In this document: positions 2,707-41,692 of the stretch, in pieces | Numbering within the stretch: position 1 is the stretch's first letter | Layout of the letters: each line of letters starts with the position of its first letter | Source: a bacterium | GTDB taxonomy: Bacteria > Patescibacteriota > Minisyncoccia > Phycocordibacterales > Zambryskibacteraceae | Reading direction: 5' to 3' | Length of the DNA stretch: 64,000 bases | Assembly (NCBI GenBank): GCA_030649135.1 | Contig: JAUSGI010000008.1 | Coordinates: 1 to 64,000 of the forward strand | Notes under the pieces: model-generated | What the model was told of the DNA's origin: nothing | Database searches by the model: none | The model's input: the letters and a program-made list of their open reading frames with translations, nothing else | Made by a program: the position numbers and the translations under genes

Positions 2707-3546
2707 ATGCGGACAACAACCGAGCAAATCACGGTTCTGAAGGCGAACGGCAGACGCGAGGCCTTTGAAATAGAAAAGCTTACCGCTTCGCTTCTACACT
2801 CTGGCGCCACCGAAGAGGCCACCGAGAAAGTTATATCGCACGTCTTGCCGGAACTTCGCGACGGCATGACTACCGATGATATTTATAAGCATGCTTTCTC
2901 CATTCTTCAAGAAATAAGCAAACCGGTTGCCAGAAGTTATTCTCTCCGCCGCGCTGTCATGGATCTGGGACCCTCGGGCTTTCCCTTCGAAGATTTCGTG
3001 GCCGAAATTCTTAAGGCCAAGGGATTTGAGTGCGAGACTCGCCAGACTGTGCTTGGCGGATGTGTGCCACACGAAGTGGATGTGGTGGCCTATAACAAAA
3101 AGAAACTAATTATGGTTGAGGCCAAGTTCCATAACGAGCTGGGTACCAAGTCGGACTTGAAGGTAGTGCTTTACATCAAAGCGCGATTTGACGACCTCCA
3201 GGAAAACGTCTTCAACTACGGTGGAAATAACAGACATATTACCGACTGTTGGCTTATCACCAATACCAAATTCTCCAGTACGGCTATTCACTACGGCGTT
3301 TGTAAAAATCTGACTATGATAGGATGGAATTATCCGGAGAAAGGTAGTTTGCAAGACATGATTGAAGATGAGGCGCTCCACCCCGTAACCTGTCTCGCCT
3401 CTCTCTCGGCTGCCGATAAGAAAACGCTTCTCGGCAAAAGGATAGTGCTTTGTTCGGATATCAAGAAAAATCCGAAATTGCTGACTGAATTATTGGGCAA
3501 TAGTTTTGATATTACTCCGGTTATTAATGAAATAAACGAATTATAA
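2707..3546 (+). CDS. ATP-cone domain fused to an Mrr-like PD-(D/E)xK restriction endonuclease domain
   Basis: N-term ITVLKANGRREAFEIEKL (ATP-cone); C-term FEDFVAEILKAKGFE...HEVDVVA...MVEAKF (Mrr_cat-like D...E.K). Confidence 0.7.
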   Translation: MRTTTEQITVLKANGRREAFEIEKLTASLLHSGATEEATEKVISHVLPELRDGMTTDDIYKHAFSILQEISKPVARSYSLRRAVMDLGPSGFPFEDFVAEILKAKGFECETRQTVLGGCVPHEVDVVAYNKKKLIMVEAKFHNELGTKSDLKVVLYIKARFDDLQENVFNYGGNNRHITDCWLITNTKFSSTAIHYGVCKNLTMIGWNYPEKGSLQDMIEDEALHPVTCLASLSAADKKTLLGKRIVLCSDIKKNPKLLTELLGNSFDITPVINEINEL

Positions 3547-3974
3547 TGGAACTCTTCTCTCTTTTGGTCGTGGCTCTGATTCTTGGTTCTACTTTGGGAC
3601 TGGAACGGTCTTTGGCCGGTAAGACTGCCGGTGTGCGTACTTTCGGTCTGGTCTCTATGGGTTCCTGTCTTTTCATTCTCATCGCGCGATTTGTTATCCC
3701 GACTTTTGAAGCGGTTAATTATGACCCATTGAGGATGGCGGCTGGGGTGGTGATGGGTATAGGTTTTCTTTGCGGTGGCGTAATTGTTTTCAAAGATTCC
3801 ACTTTAACTGGTTTGACCACGGCTGCCGGATTATGGGTAGCCGCCGGTATCGGTATGGCGGTTGGTTACGGACTTCTACCCTTGGCACTTTTCGCCACGG
3901 TAGCGACTCTCCTGGTCTTTACCGTCTTTTGGTTTATCGAACACAAAGTTATTCCTAATGGAAAAAATGAGTGA
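3546..3974 (+). CDS. MgtC/SapB family membrane protein
   Basis: LGSTLGLERSLAGKTAGVRTFGLVSMGSCLF motif; 4 TM helices. Confidence 0.8.
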   Translation: MELFSLLVVALILGSTLGLERSLAGKTAGVRTFGLVSMGSCLFILIARFVIPTFEAVNYDPLRMAAGVVMGIGFLCGGVIVFKDSTLTGLTTAAGLWVAAGIGMAVGYGLLPLALFATVATLLVFTVFWFIEHKVIPNGKNE

Positions 3975-4551
3975 GAGAGACGAGGCTCTGAAGAAAATCA
4001 AAGAAGAGGTAATCGGCCTAGGCGCCTCGCCGCTCTATGCCGAGAGGATGAGGAATAAATATTTTCCGGTGATAGGGGAGGGTAGTCACTCGGCTGAAAT
4101 AATGTTTATCGGCGAGGCGCCGGGGGAAAATGAAGCGAAGACCGGCAGGCCGTTTTGCGGGCGGGCGGGGAAAGTGCTTGATGACCTCTTGATTTCTGTC
4201 GGCATAGAAAGAAAAGATGTCTACGTGACCAATATCGTCAAAGACCGCCCGCCCGGCAATCGTGACCCATTACCGGATGAGATAGCGATTTATGCGCCGT
4301 TTCTTGACCGCCAGATTGAAATCATCAAGCCCAAAATAGTGGCCACGCTGGGGCGTTTCTCGATGCAGTATGTGATGACGCGCTACGGCCTCGAATGGGA
4401 ATTGGATTCTATCAGCAAGCTTCATGGCAAAGTCTTTAGCGCAAAAGATTTCCAATTTATTCCCCTGTACCATCCCGCCGCCGCCATTTACAATCAGCAT
4501 CTGCTGGGCACTCTCAAAGAAGATTTCAAAGCGCTTAGGACTCTAATTTAA
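3958..4551 (+). CDS. uracil-DNA glycosylase, family 4
   Basis: GEAPGENEAKTGRPFCGRAGKVLDDLL motif. Confidence 0.85.
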   Translation: MEKMSERDEALKKIKEEVIGLGASPLYAERMRNKYFPVIGEGSHSAEIMFIGEAPGENEAKTGRPFCGRAGKVLDDLLISVGIERKDVYVTNIVKDRPPGNRDPLPDEIAIYAPFLDRQIEIIKPKIVATLGRFSMQYVMTRYGLEWELDSISKLHGKVFSAKDFQFIPLYHPAAAIYNQHLLGTLKEDFKALRTLI

Positions 4552-4570
4552 GTATGTTATATTGGCTTCA

Positions 4571-5830
4571 ATGAAATCTGAAGAAATCAGGCGGCGATTC
4601 CTGGCATTTTTTGAGAAGCGCGGACACGCCGTTATTCCTTCTGCCTCGCTTGTACCAGAAAATGATTCTTCGGTCCTCTTCACCACTGCCGGGATGCAGC
4701 CTCTGGTGCCGTATTTAATGGGTAAGAAACATCCTCAAGGTAAGCGCTTGGTCAATATTCAGAAATGCGTACGTACTCAAGACATAGAAGAAGTGGGCGA
4801 CAATACTCACGATACTTTTTTTGAAATGCTAGGCAACTGGTCTCTCGGTGATTATTTTAAAGAAGATGCGATTAAATGGAGTTTCGAGCTCCTGACTTCC
4901 GAGTCGGAAGGTTTTGGTCTTGACCCTAGCCGTCTATATATAACGGTATTCGAAGGGGATGAAAATGCTCCTCGCGATGTGGAGTCTTTTGAAACTTGGA
5001 AAAAATATATGCCGGAGAATCGAATATTTTTTCGGGGCGCAAAATCAAATTGGTGGAGTGTGGGAGAGAGTGGCCCCTGTGGCCCCGATACGGAAATGTT
5101 CTACGATATCACCAAGGAAGGTCTCGGCGATATGAGTAAAGAAGAATACATAGCGGCCGATGAAAGGCAAAACGTGGTCGAAATATGGAACGACGTCTTT
5201 ATGGAATATGAGAAGAAAGATGGTCGGGTAGTCGGCAAGCTTTCCCAAAAAAATGTGGATACCGGCGCGGGTTTGGAGCGTTTGACTACGGCTCTGCAAA
5301 ATAAAGACAATATTTTCGACACAGATTTGTTTGCCCCGATGATGGCGGCTCTCTCAAGCGTATCTTTTCCAGATGTTCGCTCTGCACGCATTGTTACTGA
5401 CCATATCCGTACTTCGGTCTTTATGATTGCAGATGGCGTCACACCTTCCAATACCGACAGGGGATATGTTTTACGCAGATTGCTGCGCCGTTCCTATATA
5501 TATGCGAGAAAAATGGGAGCGGATATCGATATTTTGCACGCTGTGGCGAATATAGTGCTTGAGCATCCAAGTTATAAAGGACTTTATACTTTTAATGTCG
5601 ATACTGTAAAGTTAGTTACTGAAGAAATAGAGAAATTTAAAAAAACACTCGAAGCGGGTCTGAAGCAAATCGAGAAAGGCGAGGATCCATTTACGCTTTT
5701 TACCAGCTACGGATTGCCATTGGAGATTATCGAAGAAGTTGTGCCGGTCGACAGAGTAAAATTTCAACAACAAATGGAACAACACAAACAAATTTCCAGT
5801 GTGGCTGGGGAGAATAAATTTAAAAACTAA
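4571..5830 (+). CDS. alaS: alanyl-tRNA synthetase, catalytic and tRNA-recognition domains only (~419 aa; no editing or C-Ala domain)
   Basis: FTTAGMQPLVPY, class II motifs, GYVLRRLLRR, TSYGLPLEIIEE; ORF stops at ~420 aa and the next gene is unrelated. Confidence 0.85.
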   Translation: MKSEEIRRRFLAFFEKRGHAVIPSASLVPENDSSVLFTTAGMQPLVPYLMGKKHPQGKRLVNIQKCVRTQDIEEVGDNTHDTFFEMLGNWSLGDYFKEDAIKWSFELLTSESEGFGLDPSRLYITVFEGDENAPRDVESFETWKKYMPENRIFFRGAKSNWWSVGESGPCGPDTEMFYDITKEGLGDMSKEEYIAADERQNVVEIWNDVFMEYEKKDGRVVGKLSQKNVDTGAGLERLTTALQNKDNIFDTDLFAPMMAALSSVSFPDVRSARIVTDHIRTSVFMIADGVTPSNTDRGYVLRRLLRRSYIYARKMGADIDILHAVANIVLEHPSYKGLYTFNVDTVKLVTEEIEKFKKTLEAGLKQIEKGEDPFTLFTSYGLPLEIIEEVVPVDRVKFQQQMEQHKQISSVAGENKFKN

Positions 5831-32052: not shown

Positions 32053-35000
32053 ATGACAAAACTCATGGGGGTAATTCTTAGCTTAGTGCTAATGGCCGGG
32101 TCGGTCCAAGCGGCCACCTTAGATGACATAGTATTTACAGAAATAATGGCGACTCCCAATGCTGTGGCTGATGCCGACGGCGAGTGGATTGAAGTTCAGA
32201 ACAATTCTTTAAGCCCAGTAGATATTGGAGGTTGGATATTAAACGATGGTTCAGATCACACTATTTCCGGACCTTATTCTATACCAGCGGGTGAGAAAGC
32301 GGTAATCTGTCGCGACAATGATTCCTCTGTAAATGGAGGAGTTAAATGCCATTATCAATCAGTTATGGTCCTAACTGACATTGGTAAAACTCTGCAACTT
32401 CTTGAGGGGGTGACCACTATAAACGAGGCTACATACGGAGACACTGCTGGAAATTCGGGAAAATCAGTTTATATTCCTAGTGGAAGTTTCGAGTCTGTTA
32501 GTCAATTTGGAAATGGCGATTATGGAACTCCGGCTGGGAATGGTGCATCAATTGGAACTCATTCCTACGCTTCGATTCAGATTGCAATTGATGCGGCAAT
32601 TTCCGGTAACACGATAGATGTTGGAGCGGGGACTTACGCGGAGAATGTTTCGCTTGACGGAAAGACAAATCTTACAATTCAAGGCGCTGGAGAGGCAACC
32701 ATTATTGAACCAGCAAGCGGAATTGGTTTTGCAATTAAAAATTCAAGCGGCATAACAATAAAGAATCTTAAAATACATACCACAGGAACCAATGCCCATG
32801 GTGTCTGGGTTGCGGGAACTCCGAATGGCGGAGCAACGGCGGTAACTGGTCTTACCGTACAAGATGACACCATAGTTGTTGACGGTTATTCCAGCGGCAT
32901 TTACGCCGAACAAGTTGATACAACACCTCATTCTGGCTGGCTAATAACAGGGAACACTATAACTGTAAATCCTGGCGCTGGTGTTACTGGTGATGGAATG
33001 GACTTGCACGATGTGTCGGGTTCGGAGGTAAGCTACAACACAATAATTCTGAATACTCCGACTGATAGCACAAATGTTCTCTGGACAAGCGAATTGTCAA
33101 ATCTTTCTAGTCTCATATTCTCCAATAACACCATCAGTGGCTCAAGCGGTAGTGAGATAGCAATCCTAACTGATTTTCTGGATGCTCTAGCAGATACATC
33201 AATTACCACCGTAACAGTAAGTGGAAACACGTTCAGTAATTGGGGTTCTAGGGCCCTAAGAGTCGGGACGGCTAACGGAACCGGAGCGGTGACGGAAATC
33301 GCAGTAAATTCAAACATATTCCAAATGGCCGCCGACACAACAGAAGTTATCGGCGGCACGGCTGCGTCAAGTGCGACTGGTAGCGGCAATATCTTCAATG
33401 TTAGTGGGACAGCAAAAATTCAAAAAGCGGTAGACGGGGCATTTTCTGGCGACACGATAAATGTCGCAGCGGGGACTTATGACGAACAGGTCGTAATAGA
33501 TGGAGAAGACCTGATATTACAAGGTGTTGGTGATACAACTATCATCCGACCATCTGCACCCGCAACGCTTACCCAGACTTATACCTTCCCAGCCGGAACT
33601 TTTTGGTCTGGCACAACTGCATCAAGTATTATCCTAGTGGAAAATGCCAGCGCTGTTACTATAAAAGATCTTAAAGTAGACGGTATTAATGTTACCAGTT
33701 TGCCCTTAACAGGTTCGCCTGACAGACTCGTCGGAGTTCTTTTGGGAGTATCTTCAGGTACCATTGATAATGCTACGGTCACTTCCATTAAAACAGCTGG
33801 CTATGCAAACCGTACATATGGCATTGAAGTAAGTGGCGCTGATAGTGGCACTTACAGCGTTGAAGTTAAAAGTTCTCATATAACAGACTGGGCTCGTAAT
33901 GGGATTGTTGCAGATGGAACTAATCTTACGGCCAACATCAATCACAACACGCTTGTAGGTCCTGGTACTATCTCTGGGCAGGTCGCTAACGGCATTCTTT
34001 TCATTGGTGGAGCTGCTGGTAACACTACAAGTAATACTATCAGCGGAATGCACTACAACGCAGATCCAGTATCTCGCAGTGCCGGTATCTTGATTTATGG
34101 CGCAACCACGGCCGGAATCTTGATAGACCAAAATGACATTTCCGATACGGATGATGGAATAAATTTGTCGGCCAGTTCTCATAACGCGACTGTCAGCAAC
34201 AACAATCTGCATAATAATCTAGAAGTAGGTATACAACTAGAAAACGGGACAGCAAACAACGCCATAACTGGGAACACAATTGTTAATAATACAATGGCTG
34301 GTATACGTTTTGGCGGTGCAGGTGATCCGGTTCCCGCGGAAGCGGATACTCCACCTGGGGCAGGTAATGTTGCTAATGATAAAAATACGATTACTGGTAA
34401 CGCGAACGGTATAGTAAATTACGATACGGGTCTTGGACAGATATTTGATGCCGCCAACAACTGGTGGGGCAACGTGAGCGGACCGTTCAACACTACAAGC
34501 AATCCTTTGGGAACCGGTGATTCTATTTCCGACAATGTAAACTTTGTTCCGTGGTATTCCACTAGCGGAATGACGACGCTTGTTTCCGCAAACATGATTG
34601 CTTACAATACCGCCTTGGATGCCGTTAGTCAGACGGACTACACGACTGCAAGCTGGTCTGCCTACCAAGCAATTGTGACTGCCAATACGAGGACCGACCA
34701 AAACACTCAAACTGAAGTTGATGACGCGACGGCCGCAATCACTACCGCGCAACTTGATCTGATTGCTATTGCCGACCTCACTGATTACAACACCGCTTTA
34801 GACGCAGTTGTTGAAAGCGATTATACGACCGAAAGCTGGGCAACGTATCAAGCTATTGTGGACGCCAATGTGGTAACCGACCAACATACCCAAGCTGAAG
34901 TTGATACAGCAATCGATAATATTACCATCGCGCAAGATGATTTAGTGGCAACACTGGACGTAGCAAAAACAACGGCACATGAAGCTCTTACAACTGCTCG

Positions 35001-35985
35001 CGCGTTATATACAGATACAAACTACACCGCTGAAAATCTAGTGGTCTTAAACGGATTCAAGTCGGATGGCGATATCGCGATTGACTCCGCTTCAGACTTA
35101 GCCGGAGTGTCCACAGCGCAGAACACAGCTACTGCTGGAATGGCCGGTGTGTTAAAAAATACACAAACAGCTCCTGACGATGACGGAAATGCGACAATGG
35201 ACTCTGACACAACGGAAGTGGTTATCACAGACCCGGATCAACCTGTTGACATTACAATTGAAAGTGGCACAGAAAATCCGACAATTGATGTTAGTGCATT
35301 TATTACCGATGGAATAGGAATATTGCCGGAGATTACAATCAATTCCGACGTAGCGGATGTTATAATTCCGGATAGTACGACAGTGACTGGCCCGACTGAT
35401 TGGGATGGGGTCATTAGCGTACCAACGGCTACCACTACTACTGGCACTGCCCCAGCTGGGTTTAGCGTTGGCGGTACTGTTATCTCGGTCGGTTCGTCTC
35501 AAGGAACATTAACCTTCAGTAATCCCGTTACGATATTACTTGCAGGTGTTACTGGAACAGTTGGCTACAAACCAGCTGGTTCAGATACTTGGCAGACGAT
35601 AACCAATGTTTGTGCCGACCCGTATGCAACTCCAGGCAACCCTCCAGCCGGTAGCGAATGCGCAATATCAAATGGTACTGATACTAAAATTGTCACCTTC
35701 CACTTCACGGAATTTGGAGAATTAGATTCTATTCCAGCTACGCCTATCCCTCCTCGTTCAAGCAGGGCAGGAGACTTTTCTCCGGCCGCGCGCAGAGCAA
35801 TCTTGGCAGCGACACCCAATGCATCAGCAGTATCGGTTGTAGGTCAAGTCCTTGGAGCCTTCACTGAAGATGAAAGACAGGCTCAAATTGTGTCCGTCCG
35901 CGGGCAACTTATAGAGAAGATAAATCAACTAATCGGTCTCTTGCGGGTGCAACTTGCAGCGGCCATAACAGCAGGCGATCAATAA
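32053..35985 (+). CDS. 1310-aa secreted surface protein: signal peptide, lamin-tail domain, long right-handed beta-helix (PbH1/NosD-like), three FIVAR-like repeats, C-terminal conserved module
   Basis: signal peptide; LTD VFTEI...GEWIEVQN...GGWILND; GAGTYAENV, NNWWGNVSGPFN; YTxxSWxxYQxxVxxANxxTDQxTQxEVD repeats. Confidence 0.85.
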   Translation: MTKLMGVILSLVLMAGSVQAATLDDIVFTEIMATPNAVADADGEWIEVQNNSLSPVDIGGWILNDGSDHTISGPYSIPAGEKAVICRDNDSSVNGGVKCHYQSVMVLTDIGKTLQLLEGVTTINEATYGDTAGNSGKSVYIPSGSFESVSQFGNGDYGTPAGNGASIGTHSYASIQIAIDAAISGNTIDVGAGTYAENVSLDGKTNLTIQGAGEATIIEPASGIGFAIKNSSGITIKNLKIHTTGTNAHGVWVAGTPNGGATAVTGLTVQDDTIVVDGYSSGIYAEQVDTTPHSGWLITGNTITVNPGAGVTGDGMDLHDVSGSEVSYNTIILNTPTDSTNVLWTSELSNLSSLIFSNNTISGSSGSEIAILTDFLDALADTSITTVTVSGNTFSNWGSRALRVGTANGTGAVTEIAVNSNIFQMAADTTEVIGGTAASSATGSGNIFNVSGTAKIQKAVDGAFSGDTINVAAGTYDEQVVIDGEDLILQGVGDTTIIRPSAPATLTQTYTFPAGTFWSGTTASSIILVENASAVTIKDLKVDGINVTSLPLTGSPDRLVGVLLGVSSGTIDNATVTSIKTAGYANRTYGIEVSGADSGTYSVEVKSSHITDWARNGIVADGTNLTANINHNTLVGPGTISGQVANGILFIGGAAGNTTSNTISGMHYNADPVSRSAGILIYGATTAGILIDQNDISDTDDGINLSASSHNATVSNNNLHNNLEVGIQLENGTANNAITGNTIVNNTMAGIRFGGAGDPVPAEADTPPGAGNVANDKNTITGNANGIVNYDTGLGQIFDAANNWWGNVSGPFNTTSNPLGTGDSISDNVNFVPWYSTSGMTTLVSANMIAYNTALDAVSQTDYTTASWSAYQAIVTANTRTDQNTQTEVDDATAAITTAQLDLIAIADLTDYNTALDAVVESDYTTESWATYQAIVDANVVTDQHTQAEVDTAIDNITIAQDDLVATLDVAKTTAHEALTTARALYTDTNYTAENLVVLNGFKSDGDIAIDSASDLAGVSTAQNTATAGMAGVLKNTQTAPDDDGNATMDSDTTEVVITDPDQPVDITIESGTENPTIDVSAFITDGIGILPEITINSDVADVIIPDSTTVTGPTDWDGVISVPTATTTTGTAPAGFSVGGTVISVGSSQGTLTFSNPVTILLAGVTGTVGYKPAGSDTWQTITNVCADPYATPGNPPAGSECAISNGTDTKIVTFHFTEFGELDSIPATPIPPRSSRAGDFSPAARRAILAATPNASAVSVVGQVLGAFTEDERQAQIVSVRGQLIEKINQLIGLLRVQLAAAITAGDQ

Positions 35986-35998
35986 CTCCCAAACGCTC

Positions 35999-36514
35999 CT
36001 ACGCGTGGTTGTATAACAGTTTAAGTTTCTCAAGCCCTCGGTGTGCTTGCACGGCCATAGCATTCTTTGATTGTCCGGTGATAAGAGCCATTTCTTTGAG
36101 TGACAGATTTTGCACGTACCGCATGCGTATCACTTTCTGGTATTTTGTCGGAAGATGTTGAATTAATAGGAGTGCCGCTTTCCCGTCTAGGGTGTTGAAA
36201 AGAAGTTCGGAATGTTCAACGCTCGGCTCGTAGCCTTTTTCAAGTAGGACATCAAGGGAAGTGGTTTTGTGCTTCCGATATTCATCAATGATAAGATTAT
36301 TGAGGACGTGGTAGAGAAAAGCTTTCATGACATCAATCTTCCCTCCTTTCACGAGGTAGGCCCATGTTTTCATGAAGGTGTCTTGTACTAAGTCTTCGCC
36401 CCTAGCATGGTCGTGTATCTTGAAAAAGGCATGTGCATTGAGTCCCTTTTCGTAGTCATTGTGTGCTAGGGTTAATACTGTCTGTTGGCGCACCTTCTGT
36501 TTGGGGGTCATCAT
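35999..36514 (-). CDS. ECF-type sigma-70 family sigma factor
   Basis: region 2 (DLVQDTFMKTW) and region 4 (LSLKEMALITGQSKNAMAVQAHRGLEKL). Confidence 0.8.
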   Translation of the reverse strand: MMTPKQKVRQQTVLTLAHNDYEKGLNAHAFFKIHDHARGEDLVQDTFMKTWAYLVKGGKIDVMKAFLYHVLNNLIIDEYRKHKTTSLDVLLEKGYEPSVEHSELLFNTLDGKAALLLIQHLPTKYQKVIRMRYVQNLSLKEMALITGQSKNAMAVQAHRGLEKLKLLYNHA

Positions 36515-36768: not shown

Positions 36769-37152
36769 ATGCAAACACCCAAAACAATACTAATCATAGA
36801 AGATGAGAAAAGTCTTCGCGATGCCATCGTGGACATTCTACGTCTCAAAAACTTCTTGTCTCTTGAGGCAAAAAATGGTAGAGAGGGGGTGGAGCTCGCG
36901 CTCTCCAAACACCCTGACCTCATTTTGCTTGACCTTATTATGCCGGAGATGGACGGTATAATTGCGCTCAAAAATATTCGAGAAGATGCTTGGGGGAAAA
37001 AAGTTCCCATTATTATTCTAACGAATTTGAGTGCGACCAATGAACAGTTTGGGGATGATAAGGCGACGCTTAAGGCAACGCATTATTTAATTAAATCGGA
37101 TTGGAAGCTGCATGATATCGCAAAGAAGATCGAAGAAATATTGGAAACTTAA
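36769..37152 (+). CDS. stand-alone response-regulator receiver (CheY-like)
   Basis: ILIIEDEKSLRD...LILLDLIMPEMDG. Confidence 0.85.
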   Translation: MQTPKTILIIEDEKSLRDAIVDILRLKNFLSLEAKNGREGVELALSKHPDLILLDLIMPEMDGIIALKNIREDAWGKKVPIIILTNLSATNEQFGDDKATLKATHYLIKSDWKLHDIAKKIEEILET

Positions 37153-37160
37153 AATACTCC

Positions 37161-39182
37161 ATGAATAAAAAAACTATCATCTCTGCGTCCGATGATATAA
37201 TCCTAAATCTCAAAGTTTCGGCTAAGGAAAAAGAAATTGTCAGGCGCAAACTTGCTGTAACAGCAGAGAGGCTTGCTGCGACGGCAGTGAAACTTGCCAT
37301 AACAGCTAAGGAAAGAGAAAGTGTGAGGATTAAGCTAGCGGTGACTGCCGAAGAAAAGGAACATGTCAGGCTTAAGTTAGTGGTGACCGCAGAGAAGCTT
37401 GCTGTAATCGCAGAGAAGCTTGCTGTGACTGCCGAGGAAAAGGAAAGTGTCAGGCGCAAACTTGCCGTGACGGCAGCCAAACTTGCAGTAACGGCAGCTA
37501 AACTCTCCGCAACTACTGAGGAAAAAGAAAGTGTGAGACGCAAGAAGCTAGTCGCGACAGCAGCTAAGCTTGCTGTAACAGCAGAGAAGCTTGCTGCGAC
37601 CGCCAAAGAAAAGGAGAGTGTCAGGCGCAAACTTGCTGTGACCGCAGCCAAACTTGCTGTGACAGCAGAGAAGCTTGCCGCGACGGCCAAGGAAAAAGAA
37701 ATTGTTAGGCGTAAACTCGTCGTGACGGCAGAAAAGCTAGTCGTGACGGCAGCCAAACTCGCCGTGACAGCAGAGAAGCTTGCCGCGACGGCAGCCAAAC
37801 TCGCAGTAACTGCTAAGGAAAAAGAAATTGTTAGGCGTAAACTTGCAGCGACTGCTAAGGAAAAAGAAAGTGTCAGGCGCAAGCTGGTAGTGACTGCTAA
37901 GGAAAAAGAAAGTGTCAGGCGTAAGCTGGTGGTGACAGCCAAGGAAAAGGAGAGCGTCAGGCGTAAGCTGGTGGTGACAGCAGCTAAACTTGCTGTAACT
38001 GCAGCGAAACTCAAAAAGTCGTACGAAACACTCGAGAAGAAAGTGCTTGAACGAACCAAGAGTCTAGAAATGTCCAGAGCAAAGGAAGAGGCGGTTTTGC
38101 TCTCGATTGGTGACGGACTTCTTGTGACTAATGAAAAAGGAAATGTTATTATTATAAATAAGACAGCTGAAAAACTACTCGGTATTAAGAGTAAAGAAGC
38201 TATGGGAAAGGTCTTTTCCGAAGCCGTTCTTTTGGTAGATGAAAAAGGGGTGCCTATTCCGTCAGAGAAACATCCCGTAAGGATGGCTCTAGTAAGCGGC
38301 ATTACTACTGCCACTACTATTGTAGGTTCCACTTACTATAATGTGCGGAAAGATAAAACGAAATTTCCTGTGGCAATTATGGTCACGCCCGTTATTCTTG
38401 ACGGGAAGGTGATTGGAACAATTGAAGTTTTTCGAGATATTACCGCCGAGCGGGAAATTGATAAAGCCAAAACCGAATTTGTTTCCCTTGCTTCACACCA
38501 GCTCCGCACCCCGCTTTCTACGGTCAATTGGTACGCGGAAATGCTTCTGGCCGGAGATGTGGGGGAGTTGAATGAAAAACAAAAGAAATATTTAGATGAG
38601 GTATATCGCAGTAATCAGCGAATGGTTGAATTGGTAAACGCCCTTTTGGATGTCGCTTCTCTTGAAATTGGTACCTTTGTGGTTGAGCCGGAACCAACCG
38701 ATATAATCGAACTAGCGCAAAGTGTCATAGACGAACAAAAACCGCAGATTGAGGCCAAAAAAATAGTATTTTCTTTTTCATTCGGGAAAAATATTTCACT
38801 TATGCAGGCCGACCCCAAACTCCTGCGAATGATAGTGCAAAATATCTTGTCAAATGCGGTAAAATATACTCATGAAGGCGGGAAAATCGATATGTCGATT
38901 TCCTTAGCGGACAAAAATAATATTCTTCTGAAAGTCGATGATACGGGCTACGGCATACCCCAAAATCAGCAAGATAAAATATTTACCAAGCTGTTTCGGG
39001 CCGATAATGTCAGAGATAAAGACACGGACGGCACGGGCCTCGGGCTCTATATTGTAAAGTCAGTCGTTGAAAATTCTGGCGGGAAAATCTGGTTTAAGTC
39101 CGTGGGCGGGGAAGAAAATAAAGGCACCACCTTTTATGTATCGCTGCCTTTGGATGGGGCGAAAAAGCCGGCTAATATATAA
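37161..39182 (+). CDS. sensor histidine kinase: N-terminal repetitive coiled coil, PAS, HisKA, HATPase_c
   Basis: heptad KEKESVRRKLAVTAAKLAVTAEKLAAT repeats; PAS; H-box SLASHQLRTPL; HATPase N/G boxes. Confidence 0.85.
   Translation: MNKKTIISASDDIILNLKVSAKEKEIVRRKLAVTAERLAATAVKLAITAKERESVRIKLAVTAEEKEHVRLKLVVTAEKLAVIAEKLAVTAEEKESVRRKLAVTAAKLAVTAAKLSATTEEKESVRRKKLVATAAKLAVTAEKLAATAKEKESVRRKLAVTAAKLAVTAEKLAATAKEKEIVRRKLVVTAEKLVVTAAKLAVTAEKLAATAAKLAVTAKEKEIVRRKLAATAKEKESVRRKLVVTAKEKESVRRKLVVTAKEKESVRRKLVVTAAKLAVTAAKLKKSYETLEKKVLERTKSLEMSRAKEEAVLLSIGDGLLVTNEKGNVIIINKTAEKLLGIKSKEAMGKVFSEAVLLVDEKGVPIPSEKHPVRMALVSGITTATTIVGSTYYNVRKDKTKFPVAIMVTPVILDGKVIGTIEVFRDITAEREIDKAKTEFVSLASHQLRTPLSTVNWYAEMLLAGDVGELNEKQKKYLDEVYRSNQRMVELVNALLDVASLEIGTFVVEPEPTDIIELAQSVIDEQKPQIEAKKIVFSFSFGKNISLMQADPKLLRMIVQNILSNAVKYTHEGGKIDMSISLADKNNILLKVDDTGYGIPQNQQDKIFTKLFRADNVRDKDTDGTGLGLYIVKSVVENSGGKIWFKSVGGEENKGTTFYVSLPLDGAKKPANI
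37200..38010 (+). repeat. in-frame tandem repeats, 21-bp periodicity with 42- and 84-bp higher-order units
   Basis: e.g. three 42-bp units GCTAAGGAAAAAGAAAGTGTCAGGCGCAAGCTGGTAGTGACT at 37854-37979. Confidence 0.85.
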
Positions 39183-39190
39183 TTAATCAT

Positions 39191-39661
39191 ATGTCCAACA
39201 AATCTGTGAAAAAGCAAACCATTCTGGTAATAGAGGATGAGAAACCTCTGCTTGAGGCCATTAATGACAAACTTGAAAAAAGCGGTTTCGGTGTGATTGC
39301 GGCCCGTAGTGTGGAGCAAGCGTTCAACGCGAATATCGCGAAAAACGGCCTAGGTGTCATAAATGTTCGAAGCATCGAGCAAGCGCTTAATTATCTTGAA
39401 AGTTTGGAACGAGTAGACGCAATTTGGCTGGACCATCACCTTTTGGGCAAAGAAGATGGTCTTGATTTTGTAAAAAAATTTAAAGCAAATGGCGGGCGCT
39501 GGAGTAAAATTCCTGTCTTCGTAGTTTCGAATGCCGCCAGTCCCAAAACTGTCAAGTCTTATGTAGATTCCGGTGTGAGCAAGTACTATGTCAAATCCGA
39601 CCATCGACTCGATGAAATTATCAAAGACATTCAATCTTTTTTAGACCATTCGGCGAAATAA
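39191..39661 (+). CDS. stand-alone response-regulator receiver with an internal partial duplication
   Basis: ILVIEDEKPLLEAI...; duplicated ARSVEQAFN / VRSIEQALN segment. Confidence 0.75.
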   Translation: MSNKSVKKQTILVIEDEKPLLEAINDKLEKSGFGVIAARSVEQAFNANIAKNGLGVINVRSIEQALNYLESLERVDAIWLDHHLLGKEDGLDFVKKFKANGGRWSKIPVFVVSNAASPKTVKSYVDSGVSKYYVKSDHRLDEIIKDIQSFLDHSAK

Positions 39662-39763: not shown

Positions 39764-41692
39764 ATGGAAAAATCTAATAAGGGTTCAATTATACTAACCG
39801 TGCTGACCGTCTCCCTTGTAATCGGTTTTCTGGGGTCAATGGTCGCGTATGCATTCGTAAGTCCAGCGACAGTCAATCTTGGAACAGCGGCTGATTTTGC
39901 GATTCTCTCGAAAGCGGGAATCACTAACGTTCCCACCTCTGTCATTACTGGGAATATCGGAACAAGTTTAGATGAAGCCAGTACTGATACTGCTTTCGCA
40001 GGTATCACGTGTGGCCAAGTGACGGGGTCAATATACTCGTTCAACTCGACAGGTCCTCTCCCTTGTGTGTTAGCTGACTCTGTATTGGCTACAACTGTAG
40101 TAAGTACGGCCGTAGGCGATATGGAAACTGCAATAACCGATGCCAACAGCCGAACACCTGATGATATCGACCTTGCATTCAATGCGGGCGTAGGATGTGC
40201 TCTTGGCACTTGTGACCTCGCGGGGCTTACTCTCGCTCCCGGCGTCTATACATTCACAGCTCCTGGCAATGTCATCATCACAAACGATGTTACCCTCTCG
40301 GGTAGCCCAAGTGATATTTGGATATTCATCATCCCGGGGACTCTTGATATCAGCTCTGCCAAGAAGGTTCTTCTAACCGGCGGCGCAGTATCTGACAATG
40401 TCTTCTGGTCAGTTGCTGGCGCGACTCAACTTCAAACATCTTCTACGTTCGAGGGAAATATCCTTGAAGCAGGAACGCCTCTTGCGATGCTCTCCGGTGC
40501 TACACTACACGGAAGAGCACTGTCGAAATTCGCAGTTACGCTCGATGCCAATACCGTTACGACTCCTTCCGCCACACCACCTCCGACAACCGGTCCGGTT
40601 TTCGTGGAAGAGGGGGTTGCGAACGGTACTCTTGATTTAGGAGAACTATTCTTCAACACCGTTCAATCAGCAATCGATGACGCAGGTACTCTTTCCGGCG
40701 ACACCATTCACGTTACCGCAGGAACTTACAACGAAAGTATCGTAGTTAACAAATCATTAACGCTCAATTCCGTGGGAGCAGTCATAAACGGCTCGGCGGG
40801 ACAAAATGGTGTTTCTATCGGGGCAAGTGATGTTACGGTTAACGGCTTCGAAGTTACTTCTAGCGGTCTTAGTGGAGTCTACGGTATCGCTGAAACAACG
40901 CCTGTCAGTAACACAGTTATTACCCACAACGTCGTTCACGGCTTTCCCGCATTGGGTATTGCGTTGGCGGCTGGTTCTGTCAATGCAGAAGTTACAACTA
41001 ACGAAGTCTACGATGTGTACGGAGGCATCTATCTTTCTACCGGCGCAATCGGTGCACTTGTAGACGGTAACGATGTTCACGACTTAGTAAGCGGTGCTGG
41101 TCCTGACCAGGGAGCCGCGGTCGCGTTTGAAGGAAACAACACAGATGTTTCGGTAACCAACAACACTCTCACAAATAACGCTTTCGGTCTCTATGTGTGG
41201 TCTGCGTTCGGTTCTGACTTTACCGGCACTGTAGTTGAGCATAACAAATTTGTAGGCAACACAGACGGTGTGGAAAATACCAATACTGGTATTATCAACG
41301 CTTCTCCGAACTGGTGGGGAGCTGTCACAGGTCCGACTCATGCCACCAACCCTAGCGGTCTAGGCGATGCGGTGAGCGACAATGTTACTTTTGACCCATG
41401 GTATGTGGACGAGGCTATGACCACGCTGTCAAATGCCCCGGCTCCAGCTCCCGCTCCAGCACCAGAACCAGAACCAGAATCAAGGGGTTCAAGGTCCGGT
41501 GACTCACGAAGAGTTTCTGCTCAAACTGCCAATGTAGTGGTGGGCGAAATCCTCGGCATCTTTACCGAAGCTGAAAGACTGGCACAGATTGCGACTGTTA
41601 AGGTTCAACTGTCCTCTCTTATCCGCCAACTGATCGGTTTATTACAGGCCCAATTGATTACGGCGCTTCAGACAGAGATTCGGAACTATTAA
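39764..41692 (+). CDS. 642-aa surface protein: DUF3494 (ice-binding-like) N-domain, Thr/Pro linker, PbH1 beta-helix, C-terminal conserved module
   Basis: LGTAADFAILSKAGITNVPTSVITGNIG; GTYNESIV, SPNWWGAVTGP; C-term GIFTEAERLAQI...QLIGLL. Confidence 0.8.
   Translation: MEKSNKGSIILTVLTVSLVIGFLGSMVAYAFVSPATVNLGTAADFAILSKAGITNVPTSVITGNIGTSLDEASTDTAFAGITCGQVTGSIYSFNSTGPLPCVLADSVLATTVVSTAVGDMETAITDANSRTPDDIDLAFNAGVGCALGTCDLAGLTLAPGVYTFTAPGNVIITNDVTLSGSPSDIWIFIIPGTLDISSAKKVLLTGGAVSDNVFWSVAGATQLQTSSTFEGNILEAGTPLAMLSGATLHGRALSKFAVTLDANTVTTPSATPPPTTGPVFVEEGVANGTLDLGELFFNTVQSAIDDAGTLSGDTIHVTAGTYNESIVVNKSLTLNSVGAVINGSAGQNGVSIGASDVTVNGFEVTSSGLSGVYGIAETTPVSNTVITHNVVHGFPALGIALAAGSVNAEVTTNEVYDVYGGIYLSTGAIGALVDGNDVHDLVSGAGPDQGAAVAFEGNNTDVSVTNNTLTNNAFGLYVWSAFGSDFTGTVVEHNKFVGNTDGVENTNTGIINASPNWWGAVTGPTHATNPSGLGDAVSDNVTFDPWYVDEAMTTLSNAPAPAPAPAPEPEPESRGSRSGDSRRVSAQTANVVVGEILGIFTEAERLAQIATVKVQLSSLIRQLIGLLQAQLITALQTEIRNY

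What the first reader, a model, noticed from the sequence alone, without database searches (positions are those of the whole stretch)
37200..38010. Histidine kinase with a long in-frame tandem-repeat (heptad) array
About 800 bp of the HK sensor region is built from 21-bp units, organised in 42- and 84-bp super-repeats. They encode (KEKESVRRKLAVTA / AKLAVTAEKLAAT)n, a predicted extended coiled coil upstream of the PAS domain. Near-perfect DNA repeats of this kind can change length by slipped-strand or recombinational expansion and contraction. The antisense frame yields an artefactual 413-aa Ala/Ser/Thr ORF. This is not a CRISPR array: the repeats are contiguous with no spacers and stay in frame.
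Basis: seen in the sequence. Interest (0 to 1): 0.55.

Follow-up and report, generated by a model that had tools for sequence, protein, structure and literature searches.

The report
Heptad-repeat rod in a histidine kinase
The repeat is real: 37 seven-residue units encode a long, positively charged helical rod at the front of a soluble sensor kinase. It belongs to a widespread family in Patescibacteria (CPR bacteria) that I could not find described. The rod's length differs greatly between close relatives, but it is not a fast-switching DNA repeat.

Summary
Nucleotides 37227-38006 of the histidine-kinase gene (37161-39182, + strand) are 37 in-frame 21-bp units. There are two kinds: A = KLAVTAx (26 copies) and B = EKEsVRR (11 copies). 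They group into 42-, 84- and 171-bp super-repeats, with one extra codon (K128).

The DNA copies are not near-perfect. Tandem Repeats Finder (TRF) gives 62-88% matches, the longest exact repeat is 30 bp, and differences sit at third codon positions.

AlphaFold2 predicts one continuous helix over residues 9-268. It leads into a linker with the ERT motif of the signaling helix (S-helix), then PAS, HisKA and HATPase_c.

Similar arrays occur in at least 367 proteins. All those inspected are PAS or histidine-kinase signalling proteins, mostly from Patescibacteria. The arrays are whole numbers of heptads, all are net basic, and all follow a conserved 22-residue N-terminal cap.

Orthologues carry 6-32 units in a conserved order. 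Pairs 88-90% identical in the PAS-kinase part differ by 14-24 heptads. Another pair keeps the same 32-unit array at 83% identity while its kinase part is only 64% identical.

So this is an evolutionarily length-variable coiled-coil input or transmission rod, not a contingency locus. What it senses is unknown. The antisense ORF is a by-product. No Pfam model or paper was found. Interest is moderate.

The parts
37161..39182 (+). Histidine-kinase gene (673 aa). No transmembrane segment is evident from the sequence. It starts 8 nt after the stop of the upstream receiver gene.
   Evidence: ORF list; Pfam PAS_9, HisKA and HATPase_c; the identical protein is in Logan contig SRR13727527_249709
37161..37226 (+). 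N-terminal cap, residues 1-22 (MNKKTIISASDDIILNLKVSAK). It is conserved across the family and lies in heptad register with the array.
   Evidence: The same cap appears in most of the 120 homologues, in both architectures
37227..38006 (+). Heptad array, residues 23-282: 37 units in the order BAAABABAAABAAAB+AAABAAABAAAAABABABABAA. A = KLAVTAx, B = EKEsVRR, + = the extra residue. Net charge is +33.
   Evidence: AlphaFold2 predicts a continuous helix over residues 9-268
37542..37544 (+). Extra codon (K128) that shifts the heptad phase by one residue (a 'skip'). Seven orthologue loci show the same one-residue phase shift; the RR[K/R/H]KL context was read in L008, L010, L013, L014 and L096.
37374..37705 (+). 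171-bp super-repeat (8 heptads plus 1 codon), 1.9 copies, 81% matches. It corresponds to extra AAAB modules relative to orthologues such as L013 and L011.
   Evidence: TRF; unit-order comparison
37805..37981 (+). 42-bp (B+A) unit, 4.2 copies, 88% matches. These are the most similar copies, so probably the youngest. They contain the longest exact repeat (30 nt).
38007..38102 (+). Helical linker, residues 283-314, containing ERT (residues 297-299, nt 38049-38057), the signature of the signaling helix. The leucines of the array lie on the same 7-residue stripe as the R of ERT.
   Evidence: sequence; conserved LE.KV.ERTK.LE in the PAS-class consensus; definition of the S-helix signature (PMC1592074)
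38091..38456 (+). PAS domain, residues 311-432
   Evidence: Pfam PAS_9, E = 8e-13
38466..38666 (+). HisKA (DHp) domain, residues 436-502, with the phospho-acceptor His446 (nt 38496-38498) in SHQLRTPL
   Evidence: Pfam HisKA, E = 8e-17; H-box position
38811..39155 (+). HATPase_c catalytic domain, residues 551-665
   Evidence: Pfam, E = 1e-27
36769..37152 (+). Upstream single-domain response regulator (receiver only)
   Evidence: Pfam Response_reg; the same position in close orthologues
39191..39661 (+). Downstream single-domain response regulator (156 aa; receiver with an inserted segment)
   Evidence: Pfam; a receiver gene lies downstream in 117 of 138 assessable related loci
35999..36514 (-). 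Divergently transcribed ECF-type sigma factor
   Evidence: Pfam Sigma70_r2 and r4_2; NCBIfam sigma70-ECF above its cut-off; the same neighbour occurs in relatives
37091..38332 (-). Antisense 413-aa ORF. It is a by-product of the repeat, not a gene.
   Evidence: No Pfam hit. Stops in this frame need a Tyr, His or Gln codon in the sense frame, and the array has almost none. The same frame is interrupted by stops in L007, L011, L014 and L093.

Best explanation
The repeat encodes a helical rod of about 260 residues, roughly 39 nm long if straight. It is most likely the two-stranded parallel coiled coil of the kinase dimer. The rod starts at a conserved 22-residue cap and continues in heptad register into an ERT-type signaling helix, the PAS domain and the kinase.

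The rod is built from two kinds of heptad. KLAVTAx carries the Leu/Ala/Thr seam. EKEsVRR places Lys/Arg in the seam and adds charge. The result is a non-ideal, strongly basic rod (+33).

It belongs to a family of soluble PAS/histidine kinases, mostly from Patescibacteria. In this family the same module can be an N-terminal extension of PAS, an N-terminal extension of the kinase's own dimerisation helix, or a connector between PAS domains. Its likely role is therefore to hold the dimer together and to set or transmit helical register to the kinase. The kinase then phosphorylates the adjacent receiver-only regulators next to an ECF sigma factor.

The array changes length over evolutionary time by gain or loss of whole 14-, 28- and 57-residue modules, through unequal recombination between diverged copies. 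It does not vary by frequent slippage.

Shown: the anatomy, helix prediction, family distribution, whole-heptad lengths, conserved unit order, basic charge and selection at the protein level. Inferred: the dimeric parallel coiled coil, signal transmission, and the sigma-factor output.
For: - Periodicity and in-frame units.
- Helix: residues 9-268 in the window protein. In the PAS-less relative P0038, a single helix spans residues 11-197, running through the array and the phospho-His180.
- Family: 367 proteins at E <= 1e-3, and the 120 listed carry HisKA/HATPase_c and/or PAS domains. Of 37 array-bearing cluster representatives, 26 have an H-box. Most of the rest are short sequences, probably fragments, plus two longer PAS proteins.
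- Whole heptads: no phase shift in 116 of 120 homologue arrays. In 34 of 42 PAS-less members the last unit starts exactly 31 residues before the His.
- Array used as a connector: between PAS and HisKA or between PAS domains in P0121, P0127 and P0153.
- Selection on the protein: variability at codon positions 1/2/3 is 0.10/0.20/0.59 in A units. Identical residues use the same codon in 43% of pairs, against 32% expected.
- Conserved unit order and skip.
- L011 and L023 arrays are 83% identical in register, against 44-58% when shifted, while their PAS-kinase parts are 64% identical.
- Module-sized length changes: 32 versus 8 heptads at 90% PAS-kinase identity, and 24 versus 10 at 88%.
- Basic charge in all 120 arrays, median +1.07 per heptad.
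- ERT signature and its meaning.
- Heptad dependence of kinase signalling on linker length.
- Conserved sigma/receiver neighbours.
Against: - The oligomeric state was not tested. AlphaFold2 was run on a monomer, and confidence along the rod is only moderate (pLDDT about 50-86 in the window protein and 52-73 in P0038).
- The seam is poor for a canonical dimer. It is Leu with Thr or Ala in A units and Lys/Arg/Val in B units. Three adjacent stripes are semi-hydrophobic, which would also fit a trimer, a tetramer or a fold-back bundle.
- Nothing lies upstream of the rod except a 22-residue cap, so 'transmission' has no obvious source in this architecture.
- Close relatives with 6-8 heptads persist, so great length is not essential.
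- No experimental data exist for any member.
Confidence: 0.7

Rival explanations
1. The rod is itself the sensor of a physical or bulk chemical variable, such as ionic strength, temperature, or a polyanion (nucleic acid, polyphosphate, acidic lipid). A marginally stable, highly basic zipper would open or close with conditions, and array length would set the threshold.
For: - PAS-less family members have no input domain other than the array, which runs straight into the kinase helix.
- The core is non-ideal, with charged residues in the seam every second to sixth heptad.
- Net positive charge is conserved in all 120 arrays, while the rest of the protein is near neutral.
- Length varies between close relatives.
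- The signaling-helix paper proposes that polar core residues act as a switch.
Against: - There is no direct evidence for any stimulus.
- The window protein also has a PAS domain that could bind the real ligand.
- A GC-rich relative that appears to be non-Patescibacteria (P0153) carries an acidic version of the repeat, so basic charge is not intrinsic to the module.
- I did not compare the array's charge with the average for Patescibacteria proteins.
Confidence: 0.2
2. The rod is a passive spacer or scaffold. The conserved N-terminal cap docks to a partner or a cell structure, and the rod sets the distance between that site and the kinase, acting as a molecular ruler or localisation stalk.
For: - The cap is strongly conserved in both architectures.
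- The rigid helix prediction.
- The wide range of lengths tolerated.
Against: - No partner was identified, and the conserved neighbours are only receivers and a sigma factor.
- The cap residues I13, L17 and L20 fall on the same seam as the array, so the cap may simply be the nucleating end of the coiled coil.
- A passive spacer would not need a conserved unit order, or 83% sequence conservation.
Confidence: 0.15
3. It is a contingency (hypervariable) locus. The array expands and contracts frequently within populations by slipped-strand mispairing, giving kinase variants of different length.
For: - Large length differences exist between proteins 88-96% identical outside the array.
- The 42-bp x 4.2 block has 88% matches and a 30-nt exact repeat.
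Against: - Copies have diverged (62-88% matches). There are only 22 repeated 24-mers, and none longer than 30 nt.
- Codon sharing is only modestly above chance.
- Unit order and the skip are shared by orthologues 62-79% identical.
- Assemblies of the same lineage have identical arrays: L008 = L010, L009 = L087, and the window = Logan contig.
Confidence: 0.08
4. It is an assembly artefact (collapsed or expanded repeat), or the antisense 413-aa ORF is the real gene.
For: Repeats are prone to misassembly. The antisense frame is open for 1,242 nt and shares its wobble positions with the sense frame.
Against: - Logan contig SRR13727527_249709, found by exact look-up, is identical over 11.9 kb.
- Copies are diverged enough to assemble unambiguously.
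- The reading frame runs uninterrupted from the conserved cap into PAS and the kinase.
- Hundreds of relatives have the same design.
- The antisense ORF has no family hit, and its frame is interrupted by stops in four orthologues.
Confidence: 0.03

Closest known systems
Signaling helix (S-helix) and other coiled-coil linkers of sensor histidine kinases (Anantharaman, Balaji and Aravind 2006, PMC1592074; review PMC6798134)
   Same: Both are parallel-type heptad helices joining signalling domains to PAS or the kinase dimerisation helix. Both have polar residues in seam positions. Lengths come in whole heptads. The window protein carries the ERT signature immediately after the array, on the same stripe as the array's leucines.
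   Different: The S-helix is a single element of about 40 residues (5 heptads) with one ERT. Here there are 37 heptads of two stereotyped sequences without ERT, repeated in a defined order. The rod is strongly basic, usually N-terminal with no domain upstream, and its length varies from 6 to about 50 units.
Poly-HAMP arrays of soluble kinases and receptors (fungal group III hybrid histidine kinases, Aer2). This comparison is from my own knowledge; no paper was read here.
   Same: Both are soluble signalling proteins whose N-terminal input is a tandem array of helical modules, with a module number that differs between lineages.
   Different: No HAMP domain was detected. The unit here is 7/14/28 residues of continuous helix rather than a roughly 50-residue helix-loop-helix four-helix bundle.
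Heptad-length classes of chemoreceptor cytoplasmic domains. From my own knowledge; not checked here.
   Same: Both evolve by insertion or deletion of whole heptads in a long signalling coiled coil.
   Different: Chemoreceptors form an antiparallel hairpin with symmetric indels and a conserved tip. No MCPsignal hit was found here, and the model shows one uninterrupted helix.
Non-ideal long coiled coils such as tropomyosin (alanine clusters) and streptococcal M proteins (sequence repeats, length variation). From my own knowledge.
   Same: Both have Ala-rich or destabilised cores, periodic super-repeats, skip residues, and length variation by repeat gain and loss.
   Different: Those are structural or surface proteins. 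This rod is fused to a cytoplasmic kinase and has its own sequence motif. The only PDB sequence matches were designed coiled coils, at E of about 0.4-0.5.

Membership tests
Class I two-component sensor histidine kinase (HisKA + HATPase_c) | Dimerisation/phosphotransfer domain with an H-box histidine | tested here: met
   Pfam HisKA, E = 8e-17, residues 436-502; His446 in SHQLRTPL
Class I two-component sensor histidine kinase (HisKA + HATPase_c) | GHKL ATP-binding catalytic domain | tested here: met
   Pfam HATPase_c, E = 1e-27, residues 551-665
Class I two-component sensor histidine kinase (HisKA + HATPase_c) | Cognate receiver-domain partner encoded nearby | tested here: met
   Receiver-only genes lie directly upstream and downstream. 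A downstream receiver is present in 117 of 138 related loci. Phosphotransfer itself is not testable here.
Coiled coil | Seven-residue periodicity of apolar residues on a predicted alpha-helix | tested here: met
   The strongest hydrophobicity period is 7.0 residues. Position 2 is Leu in 26 of 37 units. AlphaFold2 predicts a helix over residues 9-268.
Coiled coil | Two or more helices wound around each other (oligomeric state, orientation) | not testable with these tools
   Only monomer prediction was available. A parallel dimer is inferred from continuity with the kinase dimerisation helix in P0038.
Signaling helix (S-helix) | Helix of about 5 heptads between signalling domains, with an ERT signature in the central heptad | tested here: inconclusive
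   The linker at residues 283-314 has ERT at 297-299 within the conserved LE.KV.ERTK.LE. No S-helix profile was available to score it. The array itself lacks ERT and is not an S-helix.
Poly-HAMP input array | Tandem HAMP domains | tested here: not met
   No HAMP hit in Pfam at E <= 0.01
Contingency locus / simple-sequence phase variation | Long tract of (near-)identical short units prone to slippage | tested here: not met
   62-88% matches; longest exact repeat 30 nt; differences at wobble positions
Contingency locus / simple-sequence phase variation | Length polymorphism within a strain or population | not testable with these tools
   Only one other copy was found, and it is identical. No reads were available.
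CRISPR array | Direct repeats separated by unique spacers, non-coding | tested here: not met
   The units are contiguous and lie in frame inside a 673-aa ORF

The most novel reading that the evidence does not exclude
The two-heptad array (KLAVTAx / EKEsVRR), with its conserved cap, is an undescribed input module of kinases found mainly in Patescibacteria. It would be a basic, marginally stable zipper that directly senses a bulk physical signal (ionic strength, temperature or a cellular polyanion). Its response threshold would be tuned in evolution by adding or removing 14- and 28-residue modules. The conserved one-residue skip would set the sign or phase of the output, as a 7n+1 linker does in engineered kinases.
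Probability: 0.2. Interest if true: 0.65.

Novelty: new variant of a known kind. Interest (0 to 1): 0.4.

Why it matters
Patescibacteria are a large, mostly uncultured part of bacterial diversity with small genomes. What they sense is largely unknown.

This family pairs a kinase with receiver-only regulators and, in the closest relatives, an ECF sigma factor. In many members the kinase has no recognisable input other than a stereotyped heptad rod.

If the rod is the sensor, it would be a simple, modular and naturally length-tunable input, useful both for understanding signalling in these organisms and for engineering kinases. If it is only a dimerising stalk, the finding is still a clean natural experiment on how far, and in what register, a coiled coil can carry a signal. 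Lengths range from 6 to about 50 heptads, with or without a skip.

For this window alone, the result is a correct annotation: an ordinary, though unusually long, member of that family.

Tried and rejected
- Literature: searches for the motif strings and for Patescibacteria / candidate phyla radiation with histidine kinase and coiled-coil or tandem repeat found nothing relevant. One query was malformed.
- PDB sequence search with the array returned only designed coiled coils at E = 0.4-0.5, which is compositional similarity.
- Pfam and NCBIfam have no model covering residues 1-280. Weak DUF3557 and DUF3540 hits in relatives fall below or barely at threshold and lie on the repeat, so I treat them as spurious.
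- Exact-sequence look-ups of the kinase and both receivers, made to find a second population for a length-polymorphism test, returned only the same Logan contig.
- Long eukaryote-like or generic coiled-coil proteins in the exhaustive search (P0123, P0131 and others) lack the motif and were set aside.
- My first regular-expression pass counted spurious motifs inside the catalytic domain. I replaced it with a contiguous-chain definition.
- Third-codon-position variability cannot by itself reject the antisense ORF, because that frame shares wobble positions with the sense frame. I rejected it instead on stop-codon logic and on interruption in orthologues.
- Inverted repeats were sought and none were found.
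- No fold search was run, because a single long helix gives no informative matches.
Full report
**1. The observation**

Tandem Repeats Finder reports overlapping arrays with periods of 21, 42, 84 and 171 bp between 37248 and 37981. No other tandem array in the 64-kb window scores 80 or more.

The region lies inside a 673-aa ORF, 37161..39182 on the + strand. Printed in sevens, residues 23-282 (nt 37227-38006) are 37 consecutive heptads of two kinds. There are 26 A units (KLAVTAx) and 11 B units (EKE[S/I]VRR). One extra codon (AAG, K128, nt 37542-37544) moves the phase by one residue. The unit order is BAAABABAAABAAAB+AAABAAABAAAAABABABABAA. Kyte-Doolittle hydrophobicity peaks at a period of 7.0 residues.

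**2. The DNA copies are not near-perfect**

- TRF matches are 62-88%.
- Mean pairwise nucleotide identity is 69% for A units and 82% for B units.
- The longest exact repeated stretch is 30 nt, at 37850 and 37892.
- Differences concentrate at third codon positions. Heterozygosity at positions 1/2/3 of A units is 0.10/0.20/0.59.
- Where two units have the same amino acid, they use the same codon in 43% of cases, against 32% expected from local codon usage.

Most copies are therefore old and held by selection on the protein. The 42-bp x 4.2 block (37805-37981, 88% matches) and the 171-bp duplication (37374-37705, 81%) are the youngest parts.

**3. The gene**

Pfam finds PAS (residues 311-432), HisKA (436-502, His446) and HATPase_c (551-665). 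Nothing covers residues 1-280, and NCBIfam also has nothing for that part. No hydrophobic segment is present at the N-terminus, so the protein is read as soluble.

AlphaFold2 with a 60-sequence alignment gives one DSSP helix over residues 9-268 and a second over 277-314 leading into PAS. pLDDT along the rod is about 50-86, dipping around the skip and at 267-279.

The linker after the array reads AKLKKSYETLEKKVLERTKSLE. The ERT motif (residues 297-299) is the signature of the signaling helix, which places the R at a 'd' position (PMC1592074). L291, L284, L277 and the array leucines before them lie at exact 7-residue intervals from that R. This follows directly from the sequence. The array is therefore in register with the signaling helix.

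Three adjacent stripes are semi-apolar: position 5 (T/V), position 2 (L/K) and position 6 (A/R). This is a non-ideal seam, and it does not fix the oligomeric state.

The array carries 65 Lys+Arg against 32 Glu (no Asp), a net charge of +33. The remaining 391 residues have a net charge of +1.

**4. The family**

A search with residues 1-300 found 367 proteins at E <= 1e-3. The 120 listed have HisKA/HATPase_c and/or PAS domains. Where a source names them they are mostly Patescibacteria, including Paceibacterota and Peribacteraceae.

There are two architectures:
- Array-PAS-kinase: 72 proteins, median 13 heptads, range 8-29.
- Array-kinase without PAS: 42 proteins, median 21.5 heptads, range 10-34.

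In the PAS-less group, the last unit starts exactly 31 residues before the phospho-acceptor His in 34 of 42 proteins. Arrays are whole numbers of heptads, with phase shifts in only 4 of 120. Nearly all full-length members start with the same 22-residue cap, consensus MNKKTIISASDDIILNLKVLAK. All 120 arrays are net positive, median +1.07 per heptad.

The exhaustive search gave 163 cluster representatives at E <= 1e-3. Those that truly carry the motif include:
- longer examples (P0124, 673 aa; P0125, 723 aa);
- array-PAS-array-PAS-kinase (P0121, 1060 aa);
- PAS-array-kinase (P0127, P0153);
- array followed by multiple PAS domains (P0208).

Of 37 array-bearing representatives, 26 have an H-box. 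Most of the rest are short sequences, probably fragments. I saw the module only in PAS or histidine-kinase signalling proteins.

In the PAS-less relative P0038, AlphaFold2 gives one helix over residues 11-197. It runs through the array and past His180 without a break, at pLDDT 52-73. There the array is an N-terminal prolongation of the kinase dimerisation helix.

**5. Evolution of the array**

Loci were retrieved with the PAS-kinase part only. Relatives 62-79% identical there have 6 to 32 heptads, against 37 in the window.

Unit order is conserved. L011 and L023 both read BAAABABAAABAAABAAAAABABAABAABABA. L013 reads BAAABABAAAB+AAABAAABAAAAABABA. Relative to L013, the window has an extra AAAB before the skip and extra AB modules at the end.

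A one-residue phase shift is seen in L008, L010, L013, L014, L069, L090 and L096. In the five whose sequence I read, it falls in the same RR[K/R/H]KL context as in the window. So the skip is an inherited feature, not an error.

Between L011 and L023 the arrays are 83% identical in register, against 44-58% when shifted by whole modules. Their PAS-kinase parts are only 64% identical.

Conversely:
- L011 (32 heptads) and L009/L087 (8 heptads) are 90% identical in the PAS-kinase part.
- L012 (24) and L089 (10) are 88% identical.
- P0002 and P0005 are 96% identical but differ inside the array.

The 8-unit pattern BAAABABA equals the first seven units plus the last unit of the 32-unit pattern, as one internal deletion would produce. 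This is my inference.

Lineage-identical assemblies have identical arrays: L008 = L010 and L009 = L087. The window matches Logan contig SRR13727527_249709 at 100% over 11,934 bp.

Overall, length changes happen in module-sized steps on an evolutionary time scale, and long arrays can also be stably maintained. Nothing indicates rapid within-population switching, but reads were not available to test it.

**6. Context**

The kinase gene sits between two receiver-only response regulators, 36769-37152 and 39191-39661. A divergent ECF-type sigma factor lies at 35999-36514.

The same sigma-receiver-kinase-receiver layout is seen around P0021. A sigma-kinase-receiver layout is seen around P0098. A receiver follows the kinase in 117 of 138 assessable related loci, and the sigma factor is present in the closest ones. 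Output through receiver-only proteins to the sigma factor is an inference.

**7. The antisense ORF**

The 413-aa ORF 37091..38332 has no family hit. In that frame each codon pairs with the third base of one sense codon and the first two bases of the next. A stop therefore needs a sense Tyr, His or Gln codon preceded by T or C. The array has one His and no Tyr or Gln, so the frame is open by necessity. In orthologues the frame has stops in L007, L011, L014 and L093. It is a by-product.

**8. How it most likely works**

- Shown: a long, basic, heptad-periodic helix that is in register with the ERT linker or the kinase helix, is selected at the protein level, and occurs only with PAS or kinase modules.
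- Inferred: it forms the parallel coiled coil of the kinase dimer and fixes or transmits helical register to PAS and the kinase. Established work on kinase linkers shows heptad-periodic dependence of output, and inversion of the response by a single added residue (PMC6798134).
- Open: whether the rod also senses something itself (ionic strength, temperature, a polyanion) or docks through its cap.

**9. Comparison and novelty**

The kind of object, a coiled-coil element of a sensor kinase, is known. This particular array appears to be undescribed. Its distinctive features are two stereotyped heptads in a conserved order, a conserved cap, basic charge, a length of 6 to about 50 units, and an apparent concentration in Patescibacteria. 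It has no Pfam or NCBIfam model, no PDB relative, and no hit in the searchable literature. Absence from those sources is not proof of novelty.

I rate it a new variant of a known kind, of moderate interest. The window's copy is an ordinary member of the family, and the longest of its orthologue group.

Noticed in passing
window 39191-39661: The downstream receiver protein contains an internal near-duplication of about 20 residues (GFGVIAARSVEQAFN / GLGVINVRSIEQALN) inserted in the receiver fold. The orthologous neighbour of P0021 is also 157 aa with only a weak Response_reg hit, so the insertion seems to be conserved.
   Followed up: partly
window 35752-35967 and 41480-41668: The two large secreted beta-helix proteins flanking the two-component genes share a C-terminal tail. 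One is LTD + Beta_helix (32053-35985); the other is Ice_binding + Beta_helix (39764-41692). The tail is 49% identical over 72 residues (...LG.FTE.ER.AQI..V..QL..LI.QLIGLL..QL). Its function is unknown; it might be a sorting or anchoring element.
   Followed up: partly
L098 (CAYHFD010000003.1), about nt 3279-5143: In this genome the array lies in a separate 154-aa ORF in a different frame from the 380-aa PAS-kinase ORF. This could be a frameshift, a split gene or an assembly error inside the repeat.
   Followed up: no
P0153 and P0132: Related 14-residue repeats occur in proteins that look non-Patescibacteria. P0153 is a GC-rich PAS-PAS-array-HisKA kinase with an acidic version (KLAVKAEEAEETRG). 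P0132 has a PAS_10 domain, preceded by an N-terminal region I did not identify, followed by LAITAKEKEETRI repeats. The module may be older and wider than Patescibacteria.
   Followed up: partly
window 37227-38006: The codons for A-V-T-A (GCTGTNACAGC) are palindromic, so the antisense frame also reads AVTA. That antisense frame shares its wobble positions with the sense frame, so third-position variability cannot distinguish the two frames.
   Followed up: yes
window 1-64000: No tRNA or tmRNA gene was found in 64 kb.
   Followed up: no
L004 (ERZ27249449 k141_759765): The contig carrying the PAS-less array kinase P0003 has two receiver-only genes directly downstream. A few kb further on there is a second, short kinase (284 aa) with its own receiver, next to a type II secretion/pilus ATPase gene.
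   Followed up: no
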